Position numbers and translations under genes: made by a program. From Candidatus Omnitrophica bacterium UBA6215 (GTDB lineage Bacteria; Omnitrophota; Gorgyraeia; Pluralincolimonadales; Pluralincolimonadaceae), in NCBI GenBank assembly GCA_002421665.1, contig DISH01000004.1, positions 87,174-151,173 on the forward strand: a DNA stretch of 64,000 nt, in the 5' to 3' direction. Each line of letters opens with the position of its first letter. The first letter of the stretch is position 1. The notes beneath the pieces were generated by a model. The model was not told the DNA's origin. It was given only the letters and a program-made list of their open reading frames with translations, and made no database searches. Of this stretch, positions 1 to 58,360 are shown in pieces.

Positions 1-1
1 G

Positions 2-22679: not shown

Positions 22680-23819
22680 ATGGTAAAAAAACCAATAATA
22701 ACTTCTATAATATCGTTGTGCCTGTTCATATTCGCCTCCGCGGCGGATGCCAGGGTATTCAGGTTCGGCCAGGCCGAGGTCATGTTCCGCGGTTCGGTCT
22801 TCGAAACCTACGATGATAACATCACCTATGTCAAAGATAACAAGATCTCCGATTACATAACCAAGCCCTCGGTCGGAGGCAGGCTCACCTATGACGGCAA
22901 GACAACCACGGCCTCGATAGACGGGAATTATTACCACGAATTTTACGCCGACAATTCCGGTTTCAACAACAATTCGGGCGAGTTGACCGCCGAAGTCAAC
23001 TCCGAGCTGTCGAAATACGACAGGTTCACCTTCAGGGATAAATATACCAAGACATATGAGCCGCGCAGCTTCGAGGACCAGTTCGGTTTTATCGGCGGCC
23101 GTTACAGTTCCGACCGCAACCGCATCGACGTCGGTTACGCGAGGGACGTCTCGCAGCACTTCGGGTTTTCGGCGCGTTACTCGAACGAGTATAACAGTTA
23201 TTCCCGCGATGATATCGCGAAGTCTTTCCTCAACTCCGGCGGGGTGGAGGGGGCGTATATAATCAGCTCCGATTTCAGCCTTTTTACCGCCTACGACTAT
23301 ACCCGCAGGGATTTCGATGACGGCCCGCACGCGACCGTAAATACCTGGTCCGGAGGTTTCCGCAAATACCTGACCAAGCAGTTATATGTCGACGCCTCCA
23401 CCGGCGTGGATTTTATCGGGGCATACGGCGGCGGCACCGATTACACGAAGCCCTTCGGCCTGATATCGCTTACCGACGATATCGACGACCGCACCGTCCT
23501 CAATTTTCTCTTCTCGAAACGTTACAGCACCATTTCCTATTCCCAGGATATATTCGACCAGTGGCAGGTATCCGGCACGCTCAACCGCGAACTGACTCCC
23601 AAGCTCGCGGGGACGATATCCGCGTTCTACGGTAAGGGCAAGTATATCGGAACGGGGGAGGAGGACGACTTCCTCGGATCGAGCGCCGGGCTCGAATACG
23701 AGATCAACGATAAATGGAAGGCCAGGGCCGCGTATTCCTATTCCAAGCAGGATTCGAATTCCATTTTCAGCGAATACCGTAAGAACACTGTTACTTTAGG
23801 GATCATGGCGGAATTTTAG
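22680..23819 (+). CDS. Putative outer-membrane beta-barrel protein of the polysaccharide locus (EpsL-like, PEP-CTERM-locus-associated)
   Basis: Signal peptide MVKKPIITSIISLCLFIFASAADA, a Tyr/Asp/Gly/Ser-rich sequence with alternating residues, and a C-terminal Phe (GIMAEF). It is the first gene of the EPS block. Confidence 0.45.
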   Translation: MVKKPIITSIISLCLFIFASAADARVFRFGQAEVMFRGSVFETYDDNITYVKDNKISDYITKPSVGGRLTYDGKTTTASIDGNYYHEFYADNSGFNNNSGELTAEVNSELSKYDRFTFRDKYTKTYEPRSFEDQFGFIGGRYSSDRNRIDVGYARDVSQHFGFSARYSNEYNSYSRDDIAKSFLNSGGVEGAYIISSDFSLFTAYDYTRRDFDDGPHATVNTWSGGFRKYLTKQLYVDASTGVDFIGAYGGGTDYTKPFGLISLTDDIDDRTVLNFLFSKRYSTISYSQDIFDQWQVSGTLNRELTPKLAGTISAFYGKGKYIGTGEEDDFLGSSAGLEYEINDKWKARAAYSYSKQDSNSIFSEYRKNTVTLGIMAEF

Positions 23820-23823
23820 CGGT

Positions 23824-25185
23824 ATGCTCAGACAGCATTCGGATGTTTTCAGGAAGCTGTTGATATTTGCCGACATTTGTCTGGCGGCAGGTACGTTCAC
23901 CGCGGCGTATTTTTTAAGCAACGAGATGAGGCAGTTGTACCCCCTCGATGATTACCTGCGGCTTATGCCGTATTTTGTCCTTGTGTGGGTAGGGCTGTTG
24001 TATTTTCTCGGGATGTACAGCTCTTTCAGGACAAAACCGCTCCCGGACGTGGTATCGATAGTCTTCGAGACGGCATTCTTCGGTTTTGTCCTCTTCAGCA
24101 GCGTCGTTTACATCGTGAAGCTGCATGACGTAAGCAGGGCTTTCGTCTTCATGATAGTAATCGTGTCGACGGCGGCTTTTATCTTTGAGAAACTGCTCAT
24201 TGTCACGGTGTTCAGGTATTTCCGCAGGAAGGGATACAACACCCGCAATATCCTTATCGTCGGCACCGGCCGCAGGGCGCAGAACTTCGCGAAGTCGGTC
24301 GAGGGCCACGGCGAATGGGGTTTTAAGATCGTCAGGATGATAGACGAGGACGAGTTCGCGGATATGGCGGGCATACTCCACAAGAATGTGATAGACCACG
24401 TTGTCTTCGTCGTACCGCGGTTGTGGTTCGAGAAGATCGAGGACCTCATACACCTTTGCGAGACGGAGGGTATTCCCGCGAGTGTTGTCGTCGACCTTTA
24501 CGAGCTCAAGTTCGCGCGCGCGAAACAGACGGATTTTTTCGGGACGCCGATGCTGACGTTCCAGTCGGCCCCGGACAGGCAGTGGGAGCTTTTGCTCAAG
24601 CGCGTATTCGACCTTGTCTCGTCCGCCGCGGGGCTGGTGGTATTGTCTCCGCTGTTCCTGACGCTGGCGGTGATGATAAAAGCGACATCGCCCGGGCCGG
24701 TCTTCTTCAGGCAGAAGCGCTGCGGGCTCAACGGCCGCAGGTTCGCGCTTTATAAGTTCAGGACGATGGTCAAGGGCGCCGAGGAGAAACTCGCGGAACT
24801 CCGTAAGTTCAACGAGATGGACGGTCCTGTATTCAAGATGGACAATGACCCCCGCGTTACGAAGATCGGCCGGTTACTAAGGATGTTAAGCCTTGACGAA
24901 CTCCCGCAGCTCTGGAATGTCTTGAAGGGGGAGATGAGCATAGTCGGGCCTCGTCCGCCTATCCCGAGCGAGGTCGATAAGTACGATAACTGGCAGCGCC
25001 GGCGCCTGAGCATGAGGCCGGGTATCACATGCCTGTGGCAGGTCAGGGGACGCAGCGAGATAACGGATTTTAACGAATGGATGCGTCTTGACCTTGAATA
25101 TATAGATAATTGGTCCATATGGTTGGACCTGAAGATACTGTTAGCTACAATACCCGTGGTCTTAATAGCGAAAGGAGCAAAGTGA
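23824..25185 (+). CDS. Polyprenyl-phosphate glycosylphosphotransferase (WbaP/EpsB-type initiating sugar transferase)
   Basis: N-terminal multi-TM region and a C-terminal bacterial sugar transferase domain ([26 protein letters not shown]...[21 protein letters not shown]). Confidence 0.85.
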
Positions 25186-25817
25186 TGAAAGGACTGGTAA
25201 TAGTTATTGTTATGGCGGCTTTATTCGTATTCGCGCAGCCTAAAGGGATATCGGCCCCTCCCGCGGAACCGGCGCCCGAGACGGCGGCGGAAAGCGTCCC
25301 GCAACAGGCGGCCGCTTCGCAGGAATATAAGATCGGGAACGATGACATCATCGATATAGCCGTCCTGCAGCCCGAACAGTTGGCGCTCACGGTAACGGTA
25401 TCCCCGGACGGGTCGATAACGTTCCCGTATATCGGCAAGGTCGACGTAAAAGGCAAGACCCCTTCCGAGGTGCAGGAGGAGATCCAGACGCGCCTGTCCG
25501 ACGGTTACCTGAAATACCCCGTCGTATCGGTCGCGGTCAAGGAATCGCGCAGCAAGAAATTCTATGTATACGGCGAAGTCCTCAAACCCGGCACGTATTT
25601 TCTCGAGGATAACATGACCGTCCTTAAGGCGATATCGACCGCCGGCGGTTTCACTAAGTACGGATCGTCGAGCCGCGTGAAGGTCCTTCGCCCCAAGACC
25701 GGCGCGGCCGGTTATGAGACCATCAAGGTCAACATGAAGCTTATAATGAACGGTTTATCGAATGATATCGTCCTTGAGCCGGGGGACATAGTACAGGTAG
25801 AAGAAGGCGTATTCTAA
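25185..25817 (+). CDS. Polysaccharide export protein (short Wza/EpsE-like, Poly_export plus SLBB)
   Basis: Signal peptide [18 protein letters not shown]. The sequence [14 protein letters not shown]...[20 protein letters not shown] is typical of the Wza N-terminal domains. The internal ATG at 25185 overlaps the upstream stop. Confidence 0.7.
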
Positions 25818-25819
25818 GC

Positions 25820-25845
25820 GGAGTGTCCCAAAGTGACACGTCCCC
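25820..25845 (+). repeat. Dispersed repeat family copy (c): GGAGTGTCCCAAAGTGACACGTCCCC
   Basis: Identical to the second arm of copy (b). Its GGAG-N9-GTG supplies the SD and GTG start (25833) of the following GT2 gene. Confidence 0.75.
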
Positions 25846-26804
25846 TAATATCCGTTATTGTTCCCGCGTATAACTGCGGGGATGTGCTGGGAAGGGTAAT
25901 CGGCGCTTTAAAGCTCCAGGGTGGTATCGCGGCGCGGGACGTCGAGATAATTGTTATAGATGACGCTTCAACCGACTCCACGTGCGAGATATCCGAAAAT
26001 TTCGCTAAAGACGGTTCGATAAAGTTTTTCAGGAATAAAGAACGCCTCGGTTCCGGGGTTGCCCGGAACAGGGGGATAGACGCCGCGACGGCGCCTTGTT
26101 TGTTGTTCCTTGACGCGGATAACGTTCCCGGAAAAGATTGCCTGGCGGAACATCTTGAATTCCACAAAAGGTTCCCTGGCCCGCAGATAGCGGTACTCGG
26201 AAACCCGCTGCCGCCGGTTGACGTCAAGACGACGCCGCTGATGAGGCTTGATGACGTAGGGCTTGCGTTCAGGGGCCTCAAACACGGCGAGCAGTGCCCG
26301 TGGCAGGATTTTTCCTCTATGAATATCTCGCTTATGAGGTCGTTCCTTGACTCTGCGGGCGAGCGGTTCGACGAGAAGACCTTCGCCAGGACGATAGGTT
26401 TCGAGGATACCGACCTGGGTTTACGGCTTTACAGGAAAGGCCTTAGGATAATATATAACTCTAAGGCGGTCTCATACCATTACCACTTCAGGACGCCGGA
26501 ACAGTTCCTCGAAAAGGTCCGCAGGTACGGCGAGGCGTTCCGTCTCTGGCTTGACGCCGCGGATAAGGACCTGTTGAAGGAGACGGCTTTTATATCGAGG
26601 TTCCTTCCCGAGAAGGGGCCTAAAATTTCGATTCGTTACGCGAGGTACGCCTTACAAAAGGTCTTTATCAACGCCCTTACGATAGACCCGTACCTGGCGC
26701 TGACGAAAAAATTAGAGCGCCGCAGCGAAACTGTAAGCTCATTTTTATATAGACGTTTGTTCAATTATTATTTCCACAAAGGATACTACGGAAGAAAACC
26801 GTAA
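25833..26804 (+). CDS. Family 2 glycosyltransferase
   Basis: GT2 N-terminal motif ISVIVPAYNCGDVL...IIVIDDASTDST. The start is GTG 25833 (MTRPL), encoded by the repeat. Confidence 0.8.
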   Translation: MTRPLISVIVPAYNCGDVLGRVIGALKLQGGIAARDVEIIVIDDASTDSTCEISENFAKDGSIKFFRNKERLGSGVARNRGIDAATAPCLLFLDADNVPGKDCLAEHLEFHKRFPGPQIAVLGNPLPPVDVKTTPLMRLDDVGLAFRGLKHGEQCPWQDFSSMNISLMRSFLDSAGERFDEKTFARTIGFEDTDLGLRLYRKGLRIIYNSKAVSYHYHFRTPEQFLEKVRRYGEAFRLWLDAADKDLLKETAFISRFLPEKGPKISIRYARYALQKVFINALTIDPYLALTKKLERRSETVSSFLYRRLFNYYFHKGYYGRKP

Positions 26805-26820
26805 TAAAAGGAGGACGCAG

Positions 26821-28386
26821 ATGGACCGTTACGAGATGAGTGCGCGTGACAACCTCAGGATCATATTCAAAAGGAAATCGCTGCTTCCGATATTCGCGGT
26901 GCTTTCCCTGGTTTTTACGACGATATTCCTGTCATTCTTCCTGCCGAAGTACAAGAGCGAGGTAAGGCTGCTGGTCGCGAGCCTTCCGCAGGTCGAGTCG
27001 CCGTATTATTCCCCTATACCGGCCTTCAGGACCGTTGATATCGCCAGCACGGTCAGCGAGGTGATCAAGAGCCGGGACCTTTTGAGGGAAGTGACCGTTA
27101 CCCTCGGGTTAGACAAGCGCTCGGATGAACTTAAATTTTCCCCGCTGGGGTGGAAGTTCGTGAAACTTACCATGAATTACGTCATCGACCCGGTAGTCTC
27201 CATATTCAAGAGGCCTCCGACAGAATCCGAGAAACTCGAACTTTCGATAAACCGCCTCGCCAAGCAGGTCAAGGTCGACAGCATTGAGAGGACGGACGTC
27301 ATACGCGTGGCGGCCATAGATTACGACCCGCAGATGGCGGCGAAGATCGCCGACGCGCTCACGAAGCGGTACATACTCTTCAATATGATGCAGCAGATGG
27401 ACGAGTACCGCACGAAATACGGCGAGAAGCATCCTAAGATAACTATACTCGAGAACCAGATAAGCGCCATCAAGAACGAGATCTCCTCGGGCACCCTGGG
27501 TTTCAGCGAGGCGATGAGCAGCGGCAACGTCAAGGTCATAGAGCAGGCCTCCGTACCGGCATGGCCCTCGACACCCAACAAGAAGATAGCCTACCTCGTC
27601 ACGCTCGTGCTTTTCATAATATTGAGCGTGGCGGGCATGTTCGCCATGGAGATACTCGACCACTCGGTCAAGACTCCAATGGAGATAGAGAAGTACCTCA
27701 ACCTTCACGTTCTCGCGTCCATACCCTCGCTCAAGGCGAGGATGGCCGGGGACCTCAGCCCGGACATGAACGACGCCTATTACGGCGCGTATGAGATGTT
27801 CGCGGGCCGCCTGCAGATACTCGTAAAGGACAGGCATCCGTTGTGCGTTGCAATAACCAGCACCGAGAAACAGGAAGGCAAGAGCCTCACCGCGAAAGAC
27901 ATCGCCGTCATACTCAGCAAACGCTCGCACGCCAAGACCCTCCTTATAGACGCCAACGTCAAGTCGCCGTCCGTAAATAAGCTCTTCGGAGTCCCGGAGA
28001 ACCCGGGCCTGAGCGACGTGCTCGACGGTATGGCCATAGAGAAGGCCAAGAACACCATCAACGAGAACCTCGACGTCATAACCGCCGGCAAGACGGATAC
28101 GCGCGGCGCGTTCAAGGCCGAAAAGATACGCCATATGATAGACGAGGCGAAGAAACATTACGACCTCATCATAATAGATACGCCTTCGATGAAGAGCTCG
28201 GCCGCGGCCCTGCTGGTGCTCAAGCAGGCCGACCTGGGCATAATGGTCGTCAAGGAGAGCGCCACGAGGCGCGAGGTAATAAGGGACGTATTGCGCAAGA
28301 CGGAGAGGGAGGGTATCACCTTCCTCGGCGCGGTCCTGACGAACCAGAGGTATTTCATACCGGCGTTCATATACAGGCATGTTTAA
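26821..28386 (+). CDS. Polysaccharide co-polymerase (Wzz-like chain-length determinant fused to P-loop ATPase; Wzc/EpsG-like)
   Basis: N-terminal TM plus Wzz periplasmic region, a second TM, then an ATPase with Walker A TSTEKQEGKS, LLIDANVKSP and IIIDTPS. No obvious C-terminal Tyr cluster. Confidence 0.75.
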   Translation: MDRYEMSARDNLRIIFKRKSLLPIFAVLSLVFTTIFLSFFLPKYKSEVRLLVASLPQVESPYYSPIPAFRTVDIASTVSEVIKSRDLLREVTVTLGLDKRSDELKFSPLGWKFVKLTMNYVIDPVVSIFKRPPTESEKLELSINRLAKQVKVDSIERTDVIRVAAIDYDPQMAAKIADALTKRYILFNMMQQMDEYRTKYGEKHPKITILENQISAIKNEISSGTLGFSEAMSSGNVKVIEQASVPAWPSTPNKKIAYLVTLVLFIILSVAGMFAMEILDHSVKTPMEIEKYLNLHVLASIPSLKARMAGDLSPDMNDAYYGAYEMFAGRLQILVKDRHPLCVAITSTEKQEGKSLTAKDIAVILSKRSHAKTLLIDANVKSPSVNKLFGVPENPGLSDVLDGMAIEKAKNTINENLDVITAGKTDTRGAFKAEKIRHMIDEAKKHYDLIIIDTPSMKSSAAALLVLKQADLGIMVVKESATRREVIRDVLRKTEREGITFLGAVLTNQRYFIPAFIYRHV

Positions 28387-42836: not shown

Positions 42837-42837
42837 T

Positions 42838-46228: not shown

Positions 46229-46237
46229 TAGGTCATA

Positions 46238-48488: not shown

Positions 48489-48490
48489 AT

Positions 48491-51889: not shown

Positions 51890-52942
51890 ATGAAAATTAT
51901 TAATTCCGATATCTATGATAATACGAATTGGATCTGGTACCTTAAAGGCTGTGCCATATTAGGTATAGTTCTATTTCATTGGTTTTCTTATTATTTAAGC
52001 GAAACGTGTGTATTTGCGGTTAATTTCGGAGGGCAGGGAGTACATGTATTTATTATTTTAAGCGCGTTTGGTATTTATTTATCATATGAAAAATCACATC
52101 CTAAGTGGGGTATCTGGTGCCGCAAACGTTTTTTCAAAATAATATTACCTTATTATTCCTCCATATTACTTGTAGTTTTCTCAATATTGATATTTGGTGT
52201 AGTTTCCGGTAATGTTGGAAGATATTTAGGAATGTCAGGTCTCAGCATAGGATCCTTGGTTGCCTCAGTTTTACTATATAGAGCGTTTATAGATAAGTAT
52301 GTATTGATAATTAATTCCCCGTGGTGGTTTATCGTTACGATCTTGGAGTTATACCTGATTTTCCCATTGTTATATCGTTGCTTTAAGAAATATGGTTGGA
52401 TGATTATATTGGGTTCCTTGGTCATAACGGTAGGTTATGAAGTGTATTACGCTGTTATCTTAATGTCGGATAGCGTTGTATATAGCAAATTCTTTTTAGC
52501 GTTTCTTTTTGAGTATACCAGCGGGATAATTCTGGCGGACATTTATATAAACAGGATCGCTGTTTTTAAGAAAATTACCATAGGGCTTGTTCCGTTTATG
52601 TTTGGTTTGCTTATGGAGATGATTGGGATAATCCTAGCTTTCCATGGGCCAAAAGGCAGAGCTTTTAACGATGTTTTTAATTCTGTAGGATATTTTTTGA
52701 TTTTAATAAATATAGTTAATTATTTATGCAAATATAAAATTATAACCCGTTCCTTTTATTGGCTGGGTAGATATTCTTTATCGATATTCCTTGTCCATGC
52801 TCCTTACATATACTTGATATATAACAATTACAGAAATGGCGGTATTAAAAGTAGCTTGGTATATTTACCCGGTTATTTGATCGTCGTGGGCTCCATTTCA
52901 TATATATTTCAGAAATGTCTGTCAAAATATAGCAATGTTTGA
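51890..52942 (+). CDS. Acyltransferase family 3 membrane protein (OafA/WecH-like O-acetyltransferase), low-GC
   Basis: N-terminal NWIWYLKGCAILGIVLFHW, the Acyl_transf_3 hallmark, and 10 TM segments. 350 aa. Confidence 0.75.
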   Translation: MKIINSDIYDNTNWIWYLKGCAILGIVLFHWFSYYLSETCVFAVNFGGQGVHVFIILSAFGIYLSYEKSHPKWGIWCRKRFFKIILPYYSSILLVVFSILIFGVVSGNVGRYLGMSGLSIGSLVASVLLYRAFIDKYVLIINSPWWFIVTILELYLIFPLLYRCFKKYGWMIILGSLVITVGYEVYYAVILMSDSVVYSKFFLAFLFEYTSGIILADIYINRIAVFKKITIGLVPFMFGLLMEMIGIILAFHGPKGRAFNDVFNSVGYFLILINIVNYLCKYKIITRSFYWLGRYSLSIFLVHAPYIYLIYNNYRNGGIKSSLVYLPGYLIVVGSISYIFQKCLSKYSNV

Positions 52943-53182
52943 TTGTAATTATTTTTAAATAAGGATAAGGAAAGCGAGCGGGGTCTTTAAGTTTGACCCA
53001 GTGATCGTTAAGAGCATCACAAAACTGGGAACAGGGGAGAAGGCGTCCTAAGGGTCCCGCAATGGCGTTGCTTAAAGTAGCTGAAGCCGCGCCGGACGCA
53101 GTGACGAAGGCGTTAAATAGTTGGAAGAAAATTCTTCCTCAGGTGTCCATAAATTCTACCCTAAAAAGACAAAATATTTCAT

Positions 53183-53321: not shown

Positions 53322-53810
53322 ATGTTGAAGTCATTTATTACTTTAGCCGCGGTAATGGTGTTTTTGTTCTCTTTTAACGCCGCCCGCGCCGATTTCGAGG
53401 TGCACATAGTTGATTCTCTCGGCGAGAACGTGAATTTTCGTGACGGGGATACTTTTCAGTTGAGCGAGACCCCGTATTTGTATTTCAATGTGCCGGATTT
53501 CAATCCCGCGTGGCAATATATAACCTTTACCGGTTCTTACTGGCAGGACCCGGAGAATGCTTTAACCGCTACTTTACCGGTAAGCCCGAATAGCGACGGC
53601 GATGTTTGGGTAACTCTTGATTGGGATTCGATATCAAAGACCGCGGGTTTGTGGAATGTTTCAGGCTGGTACGCGGCGCCAAGCGGCGCTGTGGGGAGCG
53701 ATTCAACCACTTTCAGTTATGCCGCTGTCCCGGAACCCGTGGCTATGGTGTTGTTCATAACCGGAGGTTCGGTATTGATGGCTCGCAGGATGAGAAGGGG
53801 CAGGAAATAA
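53322..53810 (+). CDS. PEP-CTERM sorting-domain secreted protein 1
   Basis: An AGGAG RBS precedes the ATG at 53322. Signal peptide MLKSFITLAAVMVFLFSFNAARA. C-terminus AAVPEPVAMVLFITGGSVLMARRMRRGRK. Confidence 0.8.
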   Translation: MLKSFITLAAVMVFLFSFNAARADFEVHIVDSLGENVNFRDGDTFQLSETPYLYFNVPDFNPAWQYITFTGSYWQDPENALTATLPVSPNSDGDVWVTLDWDSISKTAGLWNVSGWYAAPSGAVGSDSTTFSYAAVPEPVAMVLFITGGSVLMARRMRRGRK

Positions 53811-54511
53811 TGAAAAAGGTACTTATATTAGCTTCTATTATATTGATGGTTTCCGCGGCGGCTTCGGCCGACGTGGTCAGTTTTGTATGGAACTCAAGCG
53901 GCGACACCATACAGGGCGTTGACGGCGACACCTCGTGGTGGTCGAGCGGTGACAATATGGTGAACCTCGGAAGTTATTATTTGAACCTCCTTGGCGGCAG
54001 CGCCCAGGCGGTCGGCTATGACGGGACGAGCAACGGCTGGCTTACCCAGCGCGGAACCCGCGGCCTTGGTATCTACGGCAGTGAGAACGACGAAATAGAC
54101 AGCTACGATAAGGTCGAGAAGCTTATCATCAATTTTGACGCCCCTGTTTACCTTGATTCTTTCCAGGTCAGGTCGCTTTATTATGAATCAAGCCTTTTGA
54201 CGAACGGAGATCACAAAGAGAGGGGTATAGCGAATTTCTATCTTGACGGGACGAGCATATATACCCAGAACTTGGTCGGCGTGGAGAACATCAATGCCGG
54301 CGGCGACGGTATAGTGGATTATTCATACAGCGAACCCTTGCTTATCGATAAGATAGTCTTCAACGTGCCTTCATGCAAGTGGTATACCTACCAGAGCGAG
54401 TTTTCGGTCGCTAAGATGGATGTTTCTACGGTCCCGGAACCGGTAAGCACGACATTATTCATACTTGGCGGGACCACGCTTCTTGTCCGCCGCATCCGCA
54501 GGAGAAAGTAA
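53810..54511 (+). CDS. PEP-CTERM sorting-domain secreted protein 2
   Basis: Start MKKVLILASIILMVSAAASA (the ATG overlaps the upstream stop). C-terminus VPEPVSTTLFILGGTTLLVRRIRRRK. Confidence 0.8.
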   Translation: MKKVLILASIILMVSAAASADVVSFVWNSSGDTIQGVDGDTSWWSSGDNMVNLGSYYLNLLGGSAQAVGYDGTSNGWLTQRGTRGLGIYGSENDEIDSYDKVEKLIINFDAPVYLDSFQVRSLYYESSLLTNGDHKERGIANFYLDGTSIYTQNLVGVENINAGGDGIVDYSYSEPLLIDKIVFNVPSCKWYTYQSEFSVAKMDVSTVPEPVSTTLFILGGTTLLVRRIRRRK

Positions 54512-54514
54512 AAA

Positions 54515-55222
54515 GTGAAGAGACTCATATTCGCGGTAATAGTAAGTCTGCTTGTTTGCCCCGCGGTTTTCGCGGACGTTGTTTTTAGCGATGATTTCAG
54601 CGCCGACACCATCGGCACCCTGTGGACGGTGAATGTTTCCGGCGCGAATAACTATGCCGGGATATCGTCGGATGGTTACGTGACATACAGCCTCGTCAAC
54701 AGCGGATACGCTTACCTCTATTCTTCGTCCTTCGCGGCAACAGGCGATATATCATTTTCCGGCCAGGTTTTTGCCGGCAGCTATACGTCTTACCCGGCGA
54801 TCACGCAGTCGAGCGAGATAGCGATATTCAACAGTTCCGACTCTTCAAAGTATTATAAGGTTTCCTATGAAGCGGGCTCCAATACGCTTCGTTTTGTGGA
54901 CAGCGGCACCCTGGTAGACGAGATCTCCTGGGCCGACCAGCCGTCCTTTAACTGGAAAGATTATTCATTGCAGTTCAACGGCTCCGAGTGGGCTTTTTAC
55001 CAGGGCGGGTCTTCGGTATGGTCGCGTGCCAGTTCCACGATGGACGGCGTCGGCTCGTACTTCCTGGGCATCGGGGCGTCGGATGTTTGCTCCAACAATA
55101 ATTTTACCCTGTTTGATAATGTCTCGGTCACGGCTAACACCGTGCCGGAGCCTGTAAGCACCACGCTGTTCATACTTGGCGGTTCGGTGCTGGCGCTAAG
55201 ACGTCTGCGCCGCAGGAAATAG
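54515..55222 (+). CDS. PEP-CTERM sorting-domain secreted protein 3
   Basis: GTG start. Signal peptide MKRLIFAVIVSLLVCPAVFA. C-terminus VPEPVSTTLFILGGSVLALRRLRRRK. Confidence 0.8.
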   Translation: MKRLIFAVIVSLLVCPAVFADVVFSDDFSADTIGTLWTVNVSGANNYAGISSDGYVTYSLVNSGYAYLYSSSFAATGDISFSGQVFAGSYTSYPAITQSSEIAIFNSSDSSKYYKVSYEAGSNTLRFVDSGTLVDEISWADQPSFNWKDYSLQFNGSEWAFYQGGSSVWSRASSTMDGVGSYFLGIGASDVCSNNNFTLFDNVSVTANTVPEPVSTTLFILGGSVLALRRLRRRK

Positions 55223-55259
55223 ATTTCGGGCGAGAGAAAACAATTAGGGGGATGGGAAG

Positions 55260-55844
55260 ATGAAATACTTTGTGTTTGCGGTGTTGTTTGTGGCGCTTGC
55301 CGCGGCGCCGGTATTCGCCGATGAAGCGAACATGGTGTATAACCCGGGATTCGAGATGGCCCTTAACGGCTGGGGCACCGGCGGAAGCGGGGTTTGGCTG
55401 GGTGCCGACGGGCAGGCCAGTGCCAACGCGGCCTATGCGTGGATCGGCGGGTACGGCTGGCAGGATATCACGATAACCGACCCGTTGCAGGCATTGAAGA
55501 TAAGCGGTTGGGTTTCCGACAGTTCGGATGATAAGCTCGGGACCGGCGGTTATGTTTCGTTCCGCCTTGAGTTCAAGGATGATGATGGCAACATACTCAA
55601 CGAATGGGATTCCGATAAGATCTACGGGACCGGCCTTGGATTGAGTTGGACGGAGCTTTCGGGTATCGCCACTCCCGGTTCGGGTGTTGCGAAAGCGACG
55701 CTTGTCTGGGAGACCCAGGGAAGCGGCAACGGGACGGGCAAGTTCGATAATTTCAGCGTTAGCGCGGTTCCGGAGCCTGTCAGCACGGCCTTTTTCCTTT
55801 TGGGCGGCGTGACTCTCTTGGCAAGGCGGCTGCGCAGGAAGTAG
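55260..55844 (+). CDS. PEP-CTERM sorting-domain secreted protein 4
   Basis: Signal peptide MKYFVFAVLFVALAAAPVFA. C-terminus AVPEPVSTAFFLLGGVTLLARRLRRK. Confidence 0.8.
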   Translation: MKYFVFAVLFVALAAAPVFADEANMVYNPGFEMALNGWGTGGSGVWLGADGQASANAAYAWIGGYGWQDITITDPLQALKISGWVSDSSDDKLGTGGYVSFRLEFKDDDGNILNEWDSDKIYGTGLGLSWTELSGIATPGSGVAKATLVWETQGSGNGTGKFDNFSVSAVPEPVSTAFFLLGGVTLLARRLRRK

Positions 55845-56513
55845 CTATTTTCCGAACAGGTATTCCGCTTGTTCGGGAGAGAGGCCGCGGGAAAGGTCTT
55901 TAACGAAGTCGCGGGCGAGGCGGAGGGAGACCTCCGAATTTCCGACGCGCGTAGGGATATCAAGCCGGACCATGAGTCCGGCTTTTTTCTTGTGCAGTAT
56001 CGATGACCAGAGTTCTATCATCTTCTGTTCCGTCCAGCCGACGATCTTTTTGTCGATGCATATCCAGTAGACCATAGTAAGCCCGTCTCCGCCTTTTTCC
56101 ATATAAAGCGCGTGGGCCATGAATTTCTTTCCGCCCGCGTCGAGTTCCAAGTCCTCAAGCTCGGTTATCTTGTATCCGGAACTTCCGTAACAGACCTTGG
56201 GGTTGTGGAAGTTGCCCGCGTCGAGGACAAGCATCAGCAGTCGCTCGCCGAGATAATTGACGTATGCCCTCGCGAAGACATCGCCGACGAAATTGTATAC
56301 TTCCTGGTCCTTCATCTTCGACTTCATGCTGCCGGAGACGTCTATGCTTTGCCAGTCCTTCATCTCCGCGGGGATATTTACCTGCAAGAGCGTGTCCGCG
56401 CCCCGGTATTTCCATTTAGGCAGGGCGAACGCTATCACCATCGCCGCGATCACCAGCATGCATACAATTAGGGGACGTGCCGCTTTGGGACGTGCCCTTA
56501 CAGGACAAGTCAT
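55845..56513 (-). CDS. EpsI-family exosortase-associated protein
   Basis: One N-terminal TM segment plus a periplasmic domain with the EpsI motif FHNPKVCYGSSGYK. It lies directly downstream of the exosortase gene. The first 18 codons of the ORF translate repeat copy (d). The internal ATG at 56459 (MLVIAAMVIAF...) is the more likely start. Confidence 0.8.
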   Translation of the reverse strand: MTCPVRARPKAARPLIVCMLVIAAMVIAFALPKWKYRGADTLLQVNIPAEMKDWQSIDVSGSMKSKMKDQEVYNFVGDVFARAYVNYLGERLLMLVLDAGNFHNPKVCYGSSGYKITELEDLELDAGGKKFMAHALYMEKGGDGLTMVYWICIDKKIVGWTEQKMIELWSSILHKKKAGLMVRLDIPTRVGNSEVSLRLARDFVKDLSRGLSPEQAEYLFGK

Positions 56514-56526
56514 TTTGGGACGGACC
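56471..56526 (+). repeat. Dispersed repeat family copy (d), degenerate tandem: GGGGACGTGCCGCTTTGGGACGTGCCC...TTTTGGGACGGACC
   Basis: It shares GGGGACGTGCCG(C/T)TTTGGGAC with copy (a), followed by further GGGAC units. It lies at the exosortase/EpsI junction. Confidence 0.6.
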
Positions 56527-57367
56527 TCACTTTATTCCTGTCTTCGGCCTTCTCGAGCAGGAACTCCAGGATGAGCAGACCGACGATCATTATCACGAAT
56601 ATCACCCCGCCGCTGAAATAATGGAAGAATCCCTGCGCGATCTCCTCGCCCTTGTAAAATGTCAGCAGGCAGAGGGTGATGACGCGGATGAGGTTTCCAA
56701 GGAGCGCCAGCGGGATTATCGCCGCGACCAGGATGATCTTCTTCCAGATGGAACCCTTTATCACGTAAACGTAGAATATGCCGAGAGAGAACATCGTGAT
56801 GAGCGACCGGAATCCGCTGCACGGCGCGCCCATGAAGATCTCGTGTCCGCCGAGGTAGATCATCAACCCTTCCCGGCTGACAGGGTAATGCAGGGCGTTG
56901 AGTATCGCGACCGCGGCCACCGATATGCCGTGGCGCATCGGTATGGTTATGGCGTCGAGGACGCCCAGCGGAGGCGGTACCATCAAAAGCAGGTAGAGTA
57001 TCGGGAAAGAGAGGGCCTTTGCTGCCGGGCCGCCGTATAAATATATTATTACCCCGAAAAGCAGGGGGATCGCCGAGATCGTGGTTATAAAAAGGAAATC
57101 GAGTTTCCATCCGAAGACGAACATTATCAGGCCGAGGACGATGAGCGAGGGGGCGAATACGTTAACGGCTGCGTTCAAGGGTTTATTTTCGAGTAACCTG
57201 TCCCTAAGTGACACGTCCCCTATTTTTTTCCAGACGAGGAAGAGCGAGAGGGGGAGGATGAAGTAGGCGTGGGTGTAATCGATCATCTCCCAACGCGACC
57301 TGTATAGCTGGTAGATGACCGGCGAGTAAAGGGCGCAGACCAGTCCCCAGACGACCCAGTTTAACAT
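56510..57367 (-). CDS. Exosortase (EpsH/Xrt family transpeptidase)
   Basis: A 285-aa polytopic protein. The N-terminal motif is YRSRWEMIDYTHAYFILPLSLFLVWKK (exosortase N-region). The catalytic-Cys motif is EIFMGAPCSGFRSL and the conserved Arg is in LGNLIRV. The stop overlaps the EpsI start. Confidence 0.85.
   Translation of the reverse strand: MLNWVVWGLVCALYSPVIYQLYRSRWEMIDYTHAYFILPLSLFLVWKKIGDVSLRDRLLENKPLNAAVNVFAPSLIVLGLIMFVFGWKLDFLFITTISAIPLLFGVIIYLYGGPAAKALSFPILYLLLMVPPPLGVLDAITIPMRHGISVAAVAILNALHYPVSREGLMIYLGGHEIFMGAPCSGFRSLITMFSLGIFYVYVIKGSIWKKIILVAAIIPLALLGNLIRVITLCLLTFYKGEEIAQGFFHYFSGGVIFVIMIVGLLILEFLLEKAEDRNKVRSVPK
57193..57220 (-). repeat. Dispersed repeat family copy (e), embedded in-frame in the exosortase CDS
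   Basis: The + strand reads GTAACCTGTCCCTAAGTGACACGTCCCC. Its reverse complement encodes GDVSLRDRL (exosortase residues 50-58), immediately after the first TM helix. Confidence 0.7.
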
Positions 57368-57427
57368 GGGGACATTATACCAGATAATAAAGTGTTGTGT
57401 CCCGATAATTATTTGATATAATACGGA

Positions 57428-58360
57428 TTGGGAGCGATCACAACTATGGACTTGTCGATAGTAATAGTCAATTATAAGACGAAGGATCTGACCTCCGGAT
57501 GTATAGATTCGGTCATACGAAACACGAAGGGCGTATCGTATGAGATCATCCTCGTGGACAACGCCTCGAATGACGGCAGCTGCGAGTATTTAAAGAGCAG
57601 GTATCCGGGGATAAGGATAATAGAGAACAGCGGGAACCTGGGCGTCGTTAAGGCCAATAACCAGGGTATCAAGGCGTCGAAGGGCAGGTATATACTTATG
57701 CTTAACAGTGATACCATCGTCCTGGGAGACTGTATGGCAAAATGCCTTGAGTTCGCGAAAAGCAGGAGCGATGCCGGTATAATCGGCTGCAAGGTGCTTG
57801 ATAAGGACGGGGCTTTGCAGTATTCGTGCTATCATAAGCCCAACCTGCTCACGGAGCTGGTTTGTTTTACGAAGGATATACTCAAGCCCAGCTGGGACCC
57901 GGTGAATTATTTTAAGTATATGCTCTATTGGAAGCATGACAGCGTAAGGGAGGTCGAATGCCTTTCCAGCTGTTTCTTCTGGATAGATAGGCAGATAATA
58001 AAGGAAGCCGAGTACTTCGACGAGAATATATTTATGTATTACGATGATACGGAATACTGCGTGAGGCTCAGGGAGCGGACCGGCTACAAGGTTTATTATT
58101 ACCCTTTCGCCGAAATAATCCATTTGAAGGGGTCGCGTTCAAGCGATCTGCGATACGACTCGATGACGCCGGTGAACCTGTTCCGTTCGGCCAGGTATTA
58201 TTTTGAGAAAAATTACGGCGTTTTTTACAGGGACCTGTTCGTGAAACTGTGTTCGTTTGCCTGGAGGGCAGAGAAGCTGGCGCTCAGCCCGTGCAGGTCA
58301 AACGAGAAGGTGGAAAAAAAATACAGGCTGCTGGACGAACTTATAGGGCGCTGCGCATGA
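57428..58360 (+). CDS. Family 2 glycosyltransferase
   Basis: LSIVIVNYKTKDLTSGCIDSV...IILVDNASNDGS. 310 aa. It is divergent from the exosortase gene. Confidence 0.8.
   Translation: MGAITTMDLSIVIVNYKTKDLTSGCIDSVIRNTKGVSYEIILVDNASNDGSCEYLKSRYPGIRIIENSGNLGVVKANNQGIKASKGRYILMLNSDTIVLGDCMAKCLEFAKSRSDAGIIGCKVLDKDGALQYSCYHKPNLLTELVCFTKDILKPSWDPVNYFKYMLYWKHDSVREVECLSSCFFWIDRQIIKEAEYFDENIFMYYDDTEYCVRLRERTGYKVYYYPFAEIIHLKGSRSSDLRYDSMTPVNLFRSARYYFEKNYGVFYRDLFVKLCSFAWRAEKLALSPCRSNEKVEKKYRLLDELIGRCA

What the first reader, a model, noticed from the sequence alone, without database searches (positions are those of the whole stretch)
22680..58360. Duplicated Wzx/Wzy-type polysaccharide modules under one PEP-CTERM/exosortase system
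Module A (22.7-36.8 kb) has an OMP, a PGT, Wza, Wzc, Wzy, Wzx, a methyltransferase, two acetyltransferases, three GT2s, a GT9 and a glycosidase. Module B (36.8-53 kb) has a second PGT, two more Wzx, a second Wzc, Wzy, GT2, three GT4s, GT26, a glycosidase and an O-acetyltransferase. Both are followed by four tandem PEP-CTERM proteins, EpsI and an exosortase. Three flippases and two initiating transferases imply at least two distinct lipid-linked repeat units. The two acyl modification steps and the methyltransferase suggest a decorated polymer. PEP-CTERM/exosortase loci were defined mainly in Proteobacteria and biofilm-formers. Here one is fused to an unusually large double module in a hydrogenase-bearing anaerobe.
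Basis: partly seen in the sequence, partly recalled or inferred. Interest (0 to 1): 0.55.

Follow-up and report, generated by a model that had tools for sequence, protein, structure and literature searches.

The report
Omnitrophota exosortase-linked double polysaccharide locus
This is a real 35-kb surface-polysaccharide gene cluster of an uncultured Omnitrophota bacterium: a conserved sugar-polymer line, a second line with a swappable low-GC gene cassette, and an exosortase with its sorted proteins. It is built from known parts, so it is a useful example rather than a new kind of system.

Summary
The gene inventory is confirmed almost gene for gene. Twenty-six co-directional genes (22,680-50,334, no gap above 38 bp) encode two Wzx/Wzy-type sets. 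They are followed by a GH5-like hydrolase, a membrane acyltransferase, four tandem PEP-CTERM genes, and EpsI plus an exosortase on the minus strand. The last gene (57,428-58,360) is a GT2, not the exosortase.

"Duplicated" is misleading: the paired proteins are only 26-29% identical. The organism is a Candidatus Omnitrophota. Three related species keep module A and the head of module B gene for gene. Directly after that head, GC falls from about 0.54 to about 0.30 in every species and the gene content differs. This is a serotype-type variable cassette, with a recombination gradient inside the third wzx.

Only module A has an outer-membrane exporter (short OPX plus beta-barrel). Module B's Wzc lacks the Walker A lysine. 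The exosortase passes only the generic model, as do nine Omnitrophota relatives. One PEP-CTERM cargo models as a carbohydrate-binding beta-sandwich. A sister genome carries a clean 33,058-bp deletion from mid-OMP to mid-EpsI.

Verdict: a real and well-organised locus, and a new variant of known kinds. Interest is modest.

The parts
22611..22639 (+). Near-consensus sigma-70-like promoter site (TTGACA-17-TAAAAT) just upstream of the first gene
   Evidence: 11 of 12 matches. This is a consensus match only, not shown to be functional.
22680..23819 (+). A01: outer-membrane beta-barrel protein, the inferred pore partner of the short OPX
   Evidence: PF10082 BBP2_2 scores 42.5 bits against cutoff 23.7. 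TIGR03016 scores 57.4, below its cutoff of 90.85. A signal peptide is visible.
23824..25185 (+). A02: initiating polyprenyl-phosphate hexose-1-phosphate transferase (PGT)
   Evidence: TIGR03025 scores 425.9 bits against cutoff 295.55.
25182..25817 (+). A03: short periplasmic OPX protein (Poly_export plus SLBB only, 211 aa, class 3 / D1D2 type)
   Evidence: PF02563 85.4 bits, PF10531 43.8 bits and PF22461 42.4 bits. No Wza_C match was returned.
25833..26804 (+). A04: GT2 glycosyltransferase
   Evidence: EpsD-like and other GT2 models, all below their equivalog cutoffs.
26821..28386 (+). A05: PCP-2a-type co-polymerase with a BY-kinase domain and an intact Walker A (EGKS)
   Evidence: It is 86-88% identical in three related species.
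28379..29842 (+). A06: Wzy_C-domain polytopic membrane protein (polymerase, or a ligase-like enzyme)
   Evidence: PF04932 scores 68.8 bits against 31.7. About 10 hydrophobic segments are present.
29835..31073 (+). A07: Wzx (MOP) flippase
   Evidence: PF01943 scores 60.8 bits against 28.2.
31070..31810 (+). A08: SAM-dependent methyltransferase
   Evidence: Precomputed Pfam methyltransferase families are listed.
31807..32406 (+). A09: hexapeptide-repeat acetyltransferase
   Evidence: EpsC/CysE-like, below cutoffs.
32445..32954 (+). A10: second hexapeptide-repeat acetyltransferase, 32% identical to A09
   Evidence: The start coordinate follows the gene call.
32923..33819 (+). A11: GT2
33806..34942 (+). 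A12: GT9 (heptosyltransferase-like)
   Evidence: TIGR02195 scores 105.6 bits, below its cutoff of 134.6. PF01075 is precomputed for this gene.
34939..35721 (+). A13: GT2
35718..36761 (+). A14: secreted clan-A glycoside hydrolase (GH39/GH42-like)
   Evidence: PF02449 scores 34.9 against 21 and PF01229 scores 32.8 against 26. A signal peptide is visible.
36764..38086 (+). B01: second PGT. It starts 2 bp after A14 and is 29% identical to A02
   Evidence: TIGR03025 scores 372.7 bits. Identity. Orthologues are 72-77% identical in Omnitrophota.
38111..39433 (+). B02: conserved Wzx flippase
   Evidence: PF01943 scores 190.2 bits. It is 76-78% identical in relatives.
39446..40999 (+). B03: PCP with a BY-kinase-like domain whose Walker A lysine is replaced (EGAT), a likely pseudokinase
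   Evidence: TIGR01007 scores 115.7 against 108.05. The Walker A reads EGAT here, EGIT and EGVT in orthologues, against EGKS in A05.
40996..41397 (+). B04: small secreted protein (133 aa, weak Ig-like hit), the last gene of the conserved native-GC part
   Evidence: (50% identical in relatives).
41394..42836 (+). B05: third Wzx, a mosaic. The 5' ~150 codons have native GC3 and are 82-88% identical to a relative. The 3' third has low GC3 and is 23-30% identical
   Evidence: NF007773 scores 316.8 against 273. GC3 profile, windowed identity.
41850..50550 (.). Low-GC variable cassette (GC about 0.29-0.38). Its position is conserved in relatives but its gene content is species-specific
42838..43944 (+). 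B06: 368-aa protein of unknown family in the cassette
   Evidence: Only sub-threshold hits were found (Pec_lyase 17.6 bits, C5-epimerase C-terminus 12.6 bits). There is no significant PDB sequence hit.
43941..44843 (+). B07: GT2
44825..46228 (+). B08: Wzy_C-domain membrane protein, with no detectable homologue other than itself
   Evidence: PF04932 scores 33.8 against 31.7. The homologue search is.
46238..47419 (+). B09: GT4
47391..48488 (+). B10: GT4
48491..49600 (+). B11: GT4
49597..50334 (+). B12: GT26 (WecG/TagA/CpsF family)
   Evidence: TIGR00696 scores 150.2 against 69.
50306..51751 (-). B13: secreted GH5-like glycoside hydrolase. GC3 is native except in the last ~80 codons. Homologues lie next to EpsI in other Omnitrophota
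   Evidence: A family profile matches PDB GH5 mannanases at E=6e-8. Neighbourhood (L007, L008, L013). GC3.
51890..52942 (+). B14: membrane O-acyltransferase (Acyl_transf_3), low GC, with its own promoter-like site at 51,805-51,833
   Evidence: PF01757 scores 83.7 against 31. Promoter-like site.
53322..53810 (+). C1: PEP-CTERM protein
   Evidence: TIGR02595 scores 16.0, exactly at the cutoff of 16. Tail sequence.
53810..54511 (+). C2: PEP-CTERM protein
   Evidence: TIGR02595 scores 13.7, below 16. The tail VPEPVSTTLFILGGTTLLVRRIRRRK is seen.
54515..55222 (+). C3: PEP-CTERM protein
   Evidence: TIGR02595 scores 16.9.
55260..55844 (+). C4: PEP-CTERM protein with a CBM/lectin-like beta-sandwich domain
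   Evidence: TIGR02595 scores 16.3. The AF2 model has a core pLDDT of 80-90. Foldseek top hits are sugar-binding modules.
55845..56513 (-). C5: EpsI, the exosortase-associated protein
   Evidence: TIGR02914 scores 52.2 against 42.8. The B-type and V-type EpsI models are below cutoff.
56510..57367 (-). C6: exosortase of an uncurated subtype
   Evidence: TIGR02602 scores 151.4 against 105.55. XrtV scores 192.9 against 313, XrtB 175.1 against 275 and XrtA 137.6 against 208. C183, R228 and H249 are invariant in 10 sequences.
57428..58360 (+). C7: GT2 glycosyltransferase, absent at this site in two related genomes
8828..9364 (-). Fifth PEP-CTERM protein of the window, outside the locus, with a more canonical tail
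   Evidence: PF07589 scores 23.9 against 20.7. TIGR02595 scores 22.5.

Best explanation
The region is one conserved surface-glycan supercluster of an uncultured Candidatus Omnitrophota bacterium. It holds two Wzx/Wzy-dependent assembly lines.

Line A (22.7-36.8 kb) is complete and conserved between species. Its parts are:
- a PGT, GT2 and GT9 transferases, a methyltransferase and two acetyltransferases;
- Wzx, Wzy and a PCP with an intact kinase motif;
- a periplasmic GH39-like hydrolase;
- a composite outer-membrane exporter made of a short OPX protein and a beta-barrel.

Line B (36.8-53 kb) has a conserved head: a PGT, a Wzx, a PCP with a degenerate kinase and a small secreted protein. This head feeds a low-GC cassette holding Wzx, Wzy, GT2, three GT4s, GT26 and, after the hydrolase gene, an O-acyltransferase. 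The cassette is exchanged between lineages by recombination, as in O-antigen and capsule serotype regions.

Inferred steps:
- Line A makes a conserved polymer and line B a lineage-specific one.
- Line B has no exporter of its own. It therefore uses A's exporter or stays cell-bound.
- The exosortase and EpsI process the adjacent PEP-CTERM proteins. At least one of these has a carbohydrate-binding fold. They end up on the surface or in the matrix, where they bind polysaccharide.

Shown here: gene identities, conservation pattern, GC mosaic and motif states. Not shown: the products, the sharing of the exporter, and the fate of the PEP-CTERM proteins.
For: -
- The 26 genes from A01 to B12 are co-directional with gaps of at most 38 bp, and A to B is 2 bp apart. 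One near-consensus promoter-like site lies in front of A01.
- Three related Omnitrophota species keep GT2 through GH of module A, then PGT-Wzx-Wzc-small protein, at 60-88% amino-acid identity and native GC. Directly afterwards GC falls to 0.29-0.42 and the gene content differs.
- Inside B05 wzx, identity to the L023 orthologue falls from 0.82-0.88 to 0.23-0.30. GC3 falls from about 0.7 to 0.1-0.3. This matches the gradient described for Salmonella O-antigen clusters (PMC3715488).
- Only A carries Poly_export/SLBB plus a BBP2_2 barrel. None is listed in B of the window or of two relatives.
- The short-OPX plus beta-barrel pairing is an established export type (PMC9601211, PMC9603273).
- The B03 Walker A lysine is replaced in three species, while A05 keeps it. 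A BY pseudokinase, EcpK, is described in PMC12004946.
- The exosortase passes TIGR02602 and has invariant Cys, Arg and His. EpsI passes TIGR02914.
- Three of the four tandem proteins reach the TIGR02595 cutoff.
- Eight of ten related loci have 1-7 PEP-CTERM genes within 10 kb of the exosortase, with a shared tail consensus.
- The C4 model matches sugar-binding beta-sandwiches.
- A sister genome lost window 23,085-56,143 in one clean deletion. The locus is therefore a contiguous, dispensable block.
Against: - No product chemistry or expression data exist.
- Wzy_C (PF04932) also covers WaaL and PglL-type ligases, so either 'Wzy' could be a ligase rather than a polymerase.
- Line B without an OPX fits an O-antigen-like, Lpt-exported or cell-bound glycan as well as it fits a shared exporter.
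- The four tandem tails fail the Pfam PEP-CTERM threshold (14.1 and 8.3 bits, and two with no hit, against 20.7).
- The C4 model rests on six close sequences (mean pLDDT 67). C1-C3 have no fold assignment.
- The promoter-like sites are consensus matches in a phylum whose promoters are uncharacterised.
- No sugar-nucleotide synthesis genes lie in the locus, so the monomers cannot be inferred.
Confidence: 0.6

Rival explanations
1. Two independent pathways sit side by side. A is a secreted EPS or capsule. B is an O-antigen-like, cell-bound glycan that is ligated to a lipid anchor and leaves by another route. The exosortase unit belongs functionally to neither, or only to A.
For: - B has no OPX or beta-barrel.
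- B carries the hypervariable low-GC wzx/wzy/GT block typical of O-antigen clusters (PMC3715488).
- GT26 and WbaP-type PGTs occur in O-antigen and ECA-type pathways (established knowledge).
- A06 and B08 carry the O-antigen-ligase-type Wzy_C domain.
Against: - B's co-polymerase is a PCP-2-type protein with a C-terminal BY-kinase-like domain (TIGR01007, 115.7 bits). It is not a Wzz-type PCP-1.
- A and B are 2 bp apart, co-directional, and stay adjacent in at least three species.
- The variable block lies directly beside the PEP-CTERM genes.
Confidence: 0.2
2. One of the two lines builds a lipid-linked oligosaccharide that a Wzy_C-domain enzyme transfers onto the PEP-CTERM proteins. The enzyme would act as a PglL/WaaL-like ligase. 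The locus would then couple protein sorting with protein O-glycosylation.
For: - A06 hits TIGR03097, the 'putative O-glycosylation ligase, exosortase A system-associated' model (44 bits).
- B05 hits the O-glycosylation flippase model NF058658 (263 bits).
- The variable cassette abuts the cargo genes.
- Glycosylation of PEP-CTERM proteins is a standing proposal in the field (preprint 10.64898/2025.12.21.693542).
Against: - Both hits are far below their cutoffs of 188 and 720.
- Each line has its own PCP, which argues for polymerisation.
- No glycosylation sequon or acceptor was identified.
Confidence: 0.1
3. The low-GC block is a one-off recent island from an unrelated low-GC donor, or an assembly chimera. 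It would not be an integral variable region.
For: The GC3 step is sharp, from 0.65-0.74 to 0.23-0.38. B08 Wzy has no homologue in the indexed search.
Against: - The identical join is present on 19 contigs, and the places shown come from five samples and three assembly sources.
- Relatives have a low-GC block at the same position with other genes.
- The borders lie inside homologous genes, wzx and the GH5-like gene, with graded identity.
- No integrase, transposase or flanking tRNA was found. The only tRNAs are at 61.1-61.4 kb.
Confidence: 0.04
4. A and B cooperate on a single complex heteropolymer, for example a backbone plus a block or side chain. The duplicated functions would then be redundant or subunit-like.
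For: The two are tightly contiguous and conserved together. There is a single exporter and a single upstream promoter-like site.
Against: Two PGTs, two Wzy_C proteins and two PCPs each imply separate initiation and polymerisation. B varies between species while A does not.
Confidence: 0.06

Closest known systems
PEP-CTERM/exosortase (EpsH/EpsI) systems linked to EPS loci, such as XrtA systems and the Zoogloea zooglan cluster with its PEP-CTERM proteins
   Same: - An exosortase with the conserved Cys, Arg and His, and an adjacent EpsI.
- Several secreted proteins ending in PEP, a hydrophobic helix and a basic cluster.
- All of this embedded in a large Wzx/Wzy-type EPS cluster with PGT, PCP/kinase, OPX and OMP (for the zooglan comparison).
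   Different: - The exosortase and nine Omnitrophota relatives fail every curated subtype model: XrtV 170-200 against 313, XrtB 159-197 against 275, XrtA 132-151 against 208.
- All XrtA-associated marker models score below cutoff.
- No PrsK, PrsR or PrsT regulator is seen in the window.
- The tail has a lineage-specific consensus, PEP[VI]S..LFL.GG...R+LR+K.
- The host is a PVC-group candidate phylum.
Myxococcus xanthus EPS pathway: EpsZ PGT, Wzx, Wzy, EpsV PCP with the EcpK pseudokinase, and the EpsY/EpsX composite OPX/beta-barrel translocon
   Same: - A Wzx/Wzy-dependent line with a short D1D2-type OPX and a gene for an OM beta-barrel two genes away (the PGT gene lies between them).
- A BY-kinase-like module lacking a catalytic residue.
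- Many best NCBIfam hits are to the M. xanthus Eps models: EpsZ, EpsY, EpsD, EpsC, EpsE, EpsA, EpsV and Wzx_EPS (PMC9601211, PMC9603273, PMC12004946).
   Different: - All these hits are far below the equivalog cutoffs, so none is an orthologue.
- Here the degenerate kinase is fused to the PCP.
- Two lines lie in tandem, with only one exporter between them.
- The 18-strand barrel topology was not tested.
O-antigen and capsule (cps/K-locus) clusters with conserved flanks and a low-GC serotype-specific centre
   Same: - A conserved head and tail.
- Central wzx/wzy/GT genes at about 30% GC in a genome of about 54% GC.
- Different gene sets at the same site in related species.
- A divergence and GC gradient inside the gene at the border. 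Salmonella shows 28-37% against 51-52% (PMC3715488).
   Different: - The variable block follows a second, fully conserved polysaccharide line.
- It is bounded on the far side by exosortase cargo genes rather than by housekeeping genes.
- Strain-level serotype diversity was not observed. All contigs seen for this population are near-identical here.
Periplasmic glycoside hydrolases encoded in EPS operons, such as PslG (GH39) of Pseudomonas aeruginosa (from my own knowledge)
   Same: A14 passes the GH39 and GH42 Pfam thresholds and has a signal peptide. B13 is a secreted GH5-like enzyme. There is one hydrolase per line.
   Different: The B13 family has no Pfam or NCBIfam model above threshold. 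In other Omnitrophota it sits directly after EpsI. Substrates are unknown.

Membership tests
PEP-CTERM/exosortase system (generic) | An exosortase: a polytopic membrane protein matching the EpsH/exosortase model | tested here: met
   TIGR02602 scores 151.4 bits against cutoff 105.55, and TIGR04178 scores 66.3 against 23.
PEP-CTERM/exosortase system (generic) | Conserved Cys, Arg and His residues of the exosortase/archaeosortase active site | tested here: met
   C183 (PCSG), R228 (GNLIR) and H249 (FHYF) are invariant in the window protein and nine Omnitrophota relatives. Their catalytic role is taken from established knowledge and was not tested.
PEP-CTERM/exosortase system (generic) | Cargo proteins with an N-terminal signal peptide and a C-terminal PEP motif, a TM helix and a basic cluster | tested here: met
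   The tripartite tails are seen directly. TIGR02595 scores are C1 16.0, C3 16.9 and C4 16.3 against cutoff 16, with C2 at 13.7. The fifth protein scores 22.5. Caveat: Pfam PF07589 is passed only by the fifth protein.
PEP-CTERM/exosortase system (generic) | EpsI partner next to the exosortase | tested here: met
   TIGR02914 scores 52.2 against 42.8. The genes overlap by 4 bp.
XrtA-type system (exosortase A with its EPS-locus markers) | The exosortase reaches the XrtA model cutoff | tested here: not met
   TIGR03109 scores 137.6 against cutoff 208.
XrtA-type system (exosortase A with its EPS-locus markers) | Associated marker families: TIGR03016 OMP, TIGR03013 transferase, TIGR03027 export, TIGR03007/03018 chain length and kinase, TIGR03097 ligase | tested here: not met
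   All hit, but below cutoff: 57.4/90.85, 206.3 and 204.7/393.35, 125.1/180, 51.8 and 55.8/278.85, 85.9 and 107.1/230.65, and 44.1/188.1.
XrtA-type system (exosortase A with its EPS-locus markers) | PrsK/PrsR two-component regulators and the PrsT TPR protein | tested here: inconclusive
   No such protein appears among the ORFs scanned in the 64-kb window. The rest of the genome was not available.
Exosortase subtypes XrtV / XrtB | Score at or above the subtype model cutoff | tested here: not met
   XrtV scores 192.9 against 313 and XrtB 175.1 against 275. EpsI type B scores 73.7 against 220 and type V 61.1 against 228. Nine relatives give the same result.
Wzx/Wzy-dependent polysaccharide pathway | Initiating polyprenyl-phosphate glycosylphosphotransferase | tested here: met
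   TIGR03025 is passed by A02 (425.9) and B01 (372.7) against 295.55.
Wzx/Wzy-dependent polysaccharide pathway | MOP-family Wzx flippase | tested here: met
   A07 scores 60.8 and B02 190.2 on PF01943. B05 scores 316.8 against 273 on NF007773.
Wzx/Wzy-dependent polysaccharide pathway | Wzy polymerase | tested here: inconclusive
   A06 (68.8) and B08 (33.8) pass PF04932 Wzy_C (cutoff 31.7). That domain is shared with WaaL and PglL-type ligases, so polymerase activity is not shown.
Wzx/Wzy-dependent polysaccharide pathway | PCP co-polymerase and an OPX exporter | tested here: met
   PCP: A05 and B03 hit the PCP/BY-kinase models, and PF02706 Wzz is precomputed for B03. OPX: only A03. Line B alone would not meet the OPX criterion.
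Composite OPX/beta-barrel translocon (class-3 OPX) | A short OPX with Poly_export and SLBB domains only, and no OM-spanning Wza_C domain | tested here: met
   A03 is 211 aa and hits PF02563, PF10531 and PF22461. No Wza_C hit was returned. The definition is taken from PMC9603273 and PMC9601211.
Composite OPX/beta-barrel translocon (class-3 OPX) | A genomically coupled 18-stranded OM beta-barrel | tested here: inconclusive
   A01 lies two genes upstream and passes PF10082 BBP2_2.
Bacterial tyrosine (BY) kinase | Walker A lysine (GK[ST]) | tested here: not met
   This row concerns B03. It reads EGAT, and its orthologues read EGIT and EGVT. A05 has EGKS and meets the criterion.
Bacterial tyrosine (BY) kinase | C-terminal tyrosine-rich cluster | tested here: inconclusive
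   Only two Tyr occur in the last 25 residues of both A05 and B03. No threshold is defined.
Serotype-type variable polysaccharide locus (O-antigen / cps architecture) | Conserved flanks, a central wzx/wzy/GT block of lower GC, and different content in related genomes at the same site | tested here: met
   Within-species serotype variation was not observed.

The most novel reading that the evidence does not exclude
Omnitrophota carry their own, so far uncurated, exosortase subtype. It has a lineage-specific sorting tail (PEP[VI]S..LFL.GG...R+LR+K). Its lectin/CBM-like cargo genes sit directly beside a recombination-swapped glycan cassette. Together these would form a switchable glycan-plus-lectin surface coat. 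In a phylum proposed to include host-dependent nanobacteria, such a coat could set attachment or aggregation specificity. The clean 33-kb loss in a sister lineage would then be a natural knockout of that coat.
Probability: 0.15. Interest if true: 0.6.

Novelty: new variant of a known kind. Interest (0 to 1): 0.32.

Why it matters
- It gives a detailed map of an exosortase-linked polysaccharide locus in Omnitrophota. My searches of the held paper library found no description of such a locus in this uncultured PVC-group phylum.
- The serotype-locus pattern of conserved flanks, a low-GC variable centre and a recombination border inside wzx also operates here, right next to exosortase cargo genes.
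- It flags three items for curation or experiment: an exosortase clade that no subtype model captures, a PCP with a conserved dead Walker A motif fused to it, and a large GH5-like family without a Pfam or NCBIfam model.
- It does not change how these systems are understood.

Tried and rejected
- Rfam (gathering thresholds) over the whole window found only three tRNAs at 61.1-61.4 kb. No RNA element or tRNA lies at the cassette borders.
- The GC-rich patch in the AT-rich spacer before the PEP-CTERM genes (about 52,990-53,110) has no match in any related locus or elsewhere in the window. I dropped it.
- PDB sequence searches for C3, C4 and B06 gave nothing significant.
- The single-sequence AF2 model of C3 is unusable (pLDDT 41).
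- A homologue search with B08 Wzy, meant to find the cassette's donor, returned only the protein itself. The donor remains unknown.
The phylum assignment rests on relatives: 72-77% identical proteins named Omnitrophota/Omnitrophica by NCBI, and about 74% identical syntenic DNA in an Omnitrophota MAG.
- Recent tandem duplication is rejected by the 26-29% identity of the pairs.
- An assembly chimera is rejected by 19 independent contigs.
- Membership in the XrtA, XrtB or XrtV subtypes is rejected by the cutoffs.
- Genome-wide counting of PEP-CTERM proteins was not possible. Only the window (five proteins) and 20-kb neighbourhoods could be read.

Full report
**Observation**

I listed the ORFs of 20-64 kb. 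I scanned each plausible gene against NCBIfam and Pfam.

Module A (22,680-36,761, all on the + strand) encodes:
- a beta-barrel OMP (PF10082, above threshold);
- a PGT that passes TIGR03025;
- a 211-aa OPX with only Poly_export and SLBB domains;
- a GT2;
- a Wzc-like PCP with a BY-kinase domain;
- a Wzy_C protein and a Wzx;
- a SAM methyltransferase;
- two hexapeptide acetyltransferases;
- GT2, GT9 and GT2;
- a signal-peptide-bearing GH39/42-like hydrolase.

Module B starts 2 bp later. It encodes:
- a second PGT, which also passes TIGR03025;
- a Wzx;
- a second Wzc-like protein;
- a 133-aa secreted protein;
- a third Wzx, which passes NF007773;
- a 368-aa unknown protein;
- GT2, a Wzy_C protein, three GT4s and a GT26;
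- a secreted hydrolase on the minus strand;
- an Acyl_transf_3 protein.

Four tandem genes follow. Their products end in VPEPV(S/A)..LF..GG..L..RR.RR(R)K. Then come EpsI and the exosortase, both on the minus strand, and a GT2 at 57,428-58,360.

From A01 to B12 there are 26 co-directional genes, and no intergenic gap exceeds 38 bp. A near-consensus sigma-70-like site lies just upstream of A01. Others lie before B14, before the first PEP-CTERM gene and before the exosortase. These are pattern matches only.

GC content falls from about 0.54 to about 0.30 between roughly 41.8 and 50.5 kb, and again between 51.7 and 53.0 kb.
- GC3 per gene is 0.63-0.78 for A01-B04. It is 0.23-0.38 for B05-B12 and B14.
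- The minus-strand hydrolase B13 lies between the two low-GC stretches and has GC3 of 0.61.
- Within B05 wzx, GC3 is 0.63-0.77 over the first ~75 codons. It then declines through 0.4-0.6 and reaches 0.1-0.3 from about codon 200.
- Within B13, only the last ~80 codons are low in GC3.

The paired proteins of A and B are only 26-29% identical (PGT 29%, Wzc 27%). The Wzx proteins are 22-26% identical over long alignments. 'Duplicated' is therefore true of function only, not of recent history.

**Origin and reality of the sequence**

- The exosortase sequence occurs on 14 contigs and the B03 sequence on 19. The places shown come from five sample accessions in ENA, JGI and Logan. All carry the same gene order, including the low-GC block. 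The block is therefore not an assembly chimera.
- A scan of representative genomes with the exosortase returned ten close relatives. Eight are labelled Candidatus Omnitrophota MAGs and two are binned as uncultured Planctomycetes (53-75% identity).
- Orthologues of B01 at 72-77% identity are named Omnitrophota or Omnitrophica by NCBI.
- The upstream part of the window holds a NuoF-like subunit, an [FeFe] hydrogenase, HydF and two radical-SAM maturases. It also holds an Mrp/complex-I-like membrane module with a NiFe-type large subunit, TolC-MacAB and an MFS transporter. 'Hydrogenase-bearing anaerobe' is therefore fair.

**Comparative anatomy**

Three related species were examined: L022 (GCA_041651455), L023 (GCA_028718735) and L024.
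- They keep module A from the GT2 before Wzc through the GH gene for gene, at 60-88% amino-acid identity.
- L022 and L023 also keep the whole head of B (PGT, Wzx, Wzc, small protein) at native GC. L023 has an extra methyltransferase there. The L024 contig ends within the Wzx gene.
- Directly after the small protein, GC falls to 0.29-0.42 in both and the gene content differs. L022 has two unknown genes, GT4, GT4, Wzy and a beta-helix protein. L023 has Wzx, GT4, GT4, Wzy and GT4.

The L023 Wzx is the counterpart of B05. Identity is 82-88% over the first ~100 residues and still 65-80% to about residue 160. It is 53-70% in the middle and 23-33% over the last ~140 residues. The conserved-to-variable border therefore runs through this gene.

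On the other side, L005 is the same contig as L022. There, the low-GC stretch is followed by seven tandem PEP-CTERM genes, EpsI and the exosortase.

This is the architecture of O-antigen and capsule loci. [quoted passage not shown] The gene next to the specific region shows a gradient of GC and divergence (PMC3715488).

**A natural deletion**

L004 is an Omnitrophota MAG contig whose flanks are about 74% identical in DNA. It aligns to the window up to 23,085 and resumes at 56,143. It therefore lacks 33,058 bp.
- The deletion leaves the first 138 codons of the OMP gene.
- It also leaves roughly the first 124 codons of EpsI, facing each other.
- The exosortase gene is intact.
- The flanking MacB-MFS genes are syntenic on one side. 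On the other side the genes from the small protein at 58.4 kb to YvcK are syntenic.

The ancestor therefore had the locus, and the whole block from OMP to EpsI can be lost in one step. L004 and L005 also lack the GT2 at 57,428-58,360.

**Export**

Only line A has an exporter. A03 has the domain make-up of class-3 (D1D2) OPX proteins, which lack the OM-spanning helix. Such proteins work with a genomically coupled beta-barrel (PMC9601211, PMC9603273). A01, two genes upstream, is a BBP2_2 barrel.

I did not test its strand number. No OPX or barrel is present in B, either here or in L022 and L023. B must therefore either use A's exporter or make a glycan that does not need one.

**Kinase motifs**

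A05 has an intact Walker A (EGKS) in all four species. B03 has EGAT, and its orthologues have EGIT and EGVT, although B03 passes the BY-kinase domain model TIGR01007.

This resembles the phosphorylation-independent PCP-2/pseudokinase pairing described for EpsV and EcpK in Myxococcus xanthus (PMC12004946). Here the module is fused to the PCP.

**Hydrolases**

A14 passes the GH42 and GH39 Pfam thresholds. B13 has no family hit above threshold.
- An exhaustive search found at least 4,999 relatives of B13, most of them longer proteins.
- A profile of 14 of them matches GH5 mannanases in the PDB at E=6e-8. The N239-E240 pair is invariant.
- B13 homologues lie directly after EpsI in L008 and within about 1-3.5 kb downstream of EpsI in L013 and L007.

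**The sorting unit**

- The exosortase passes the generic model (151.4 against 105.55) but no subtype model. XrtV scores 192.9 against 313, XrtB 175.1 against 275 and XrtA 137.6 against 208.
- Nine related Omnitrophota exosortases behave the same way.
- C183, R228 and H249 are invariant across the ten sequences.
- EpsI passes TIGR02914 but neither the B-type nor the V-type model.
- C1, C3 and C4 reach the TIGR02595 cutoff, C1 exactly. C2 is just below. All four fail Pfam PF07589.
- A fifth PEP-CTERM protein at 8,828-9,364 has a more canonical tail and passes both models.
- In eight of ten related loci, one to seven PEP-CTERM genes lie within 10 kb of the exosortase. They share the tail consensus [VT]PEP[VI]S..LFL.GG..LA.R+LR+K.

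The C4 family is confined to close relatives: six sequences at 61-100% identity. An AlphaFold model built from them has a confident core (pLDDT 80-90 for residues 60-170, mean 67). Its best PDB matches are sugar-binding beta-sandwiches: the Fbs1 sugar-binding domain, a hyaluronan-binding module, CBM16, CBM22, CBM61 and phage tailspike glycan-binding domains.

That supports, at moderate confidence, the idea that the cargo binds polysaccharide. What the exosortase attaches the cargo to is unknown in every system.

**Interpretation**

The best reading is a conserved glycan supercluster with two Wzx/Wzy lines.
- One line is conserved and complete.
- The other has a conserved head and a recombination-exchanged, low-GC specificity cassette.
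- The cluster ends in an exosortase unit whose cargo is at least partly lectin-like.

The main rival is that B is an independent O-antigen-like pathway. The absence of an exporter in B fits this equally well. Its PCP-2-type co-polymerase and the conserved 2-bp junction with A argue against it but do not exclude it. A glycosylation role for one of the Wzy_C proteins also cannot be excluded.

**Comparison and novelty**

Every component belongs to a known family. The three organising principles are all described: an exosortase beside an EPS locus, a composite OPX/barrel exporter, and a low-GC variable centre.

What is new:
- the combination of these principles;
- the host phylum, since full-text searches found no paper treating exosortase, PEP-CTERM or EPS loci of Omnitrophota;
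- an exosortase clade outside all curated subtypes;
- the fused, conserved dead-Walker-A PCP.

I rate it a new variant of known kinds, of modest interest.

Noticed in passing
L004:11186-11191, which corresponds to window 23,085 and 56,143: A related Omnitrophota MAG (JAGONY010000006.1) has a clean 33,058-bp deletion. It removes everything from codon ~138 of the OMP gene to codon ~124 of EpsI. The exosortase is left intact and the flanks stay syntenic.
   Followed up: yes
window 8828-9364 (-): A fifth PEP-CTERM protein lies between the hydrogenase maturase genes and the Mrp-like complex. Its tail is more canonical (VPEPVSLLLFGTGLIGLLGFKRSRD) and passes both PF07589 and TIGR02595. This hints at dispersed cargo, or at a second exosortase elsewhere in the genome.
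   Followed up: partly
window 39446-40999 (+), about residues 343-350: The Walker A lysine of the second Wzc-like protein is replaced (EGAT). Orthologues in two other species have EGIT and EGVT, so this is a conserved pseudokinase-like state. The first Wzc keeps EGKS. Both proteins also have DAN where BY-kinases usually have the DxD Walker A' motif.
   Followed up: partly
window 50306-51751 (-): This secreted 481-aa protein belongs to a very large family (at least 4,999 cluster representatives, mostly longer multidomain proteins). The family has no Pfam or NCBIfam model above threshold. A family profile links it to GH5 mannanases (E=6e-8).
   Followed up: yes
window 44825-46228 (+): The Wzy_C protein of the low-GC cassette has no homologue at E<=1e-5 other than itself in the 5.8-billion-protein indexed search. 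That search is limited by its word index.
   Followed up: partly
window 57428-58360 (+): The GT2 gene just beyond the exosortase has slightly low GC (0.48). It is absent at this site in L004 and L005, so it is a separate small indel.
   Followed up: partly
window 52990-53110: A GC-rich patch of about 120 bp (0.56) sits inside the AT-rich 379-bp spacer before the PEP-CTERM array. It has no Rfam hit and no similarity in related loci or elsewhere in the window. It may be a gene remnant or part of a 5' leader.
   Followed up: partly
window 1-16317: This stretch holds a NuoF-like flavoprotein plus an [FeFe] hydrogenase, an aspartase/fumarase-type lyase and HydF. It also holds two radical-SAM maturases (HydG/HydE-like). 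An Mrp/complex-I-like module follows, with a fused 30K/49K (NiFe-type) subunit and a 20K subunit.
   Followed up: partly
L019 (JGI 3300001592) compared with window 29.8-44 kb: The JGI copy of the same locus has several genes split or shortened: the first Wzx, a GT2 and the 368-aa unknown. These are most likely sequencing or assembly frameshifts rather than biology.
   Followed up: no
window 58357-61011 (+) and 61088-61362: Three small secreted or membrane proteins, a DUF7544 membrane protein and a 254-aa protein follow the locus. They are conserved in L004, which lacks the locus, so they are not part of it. A tRNA-Lys/Leu/Gly cluster comes next.
   Followed up: partly
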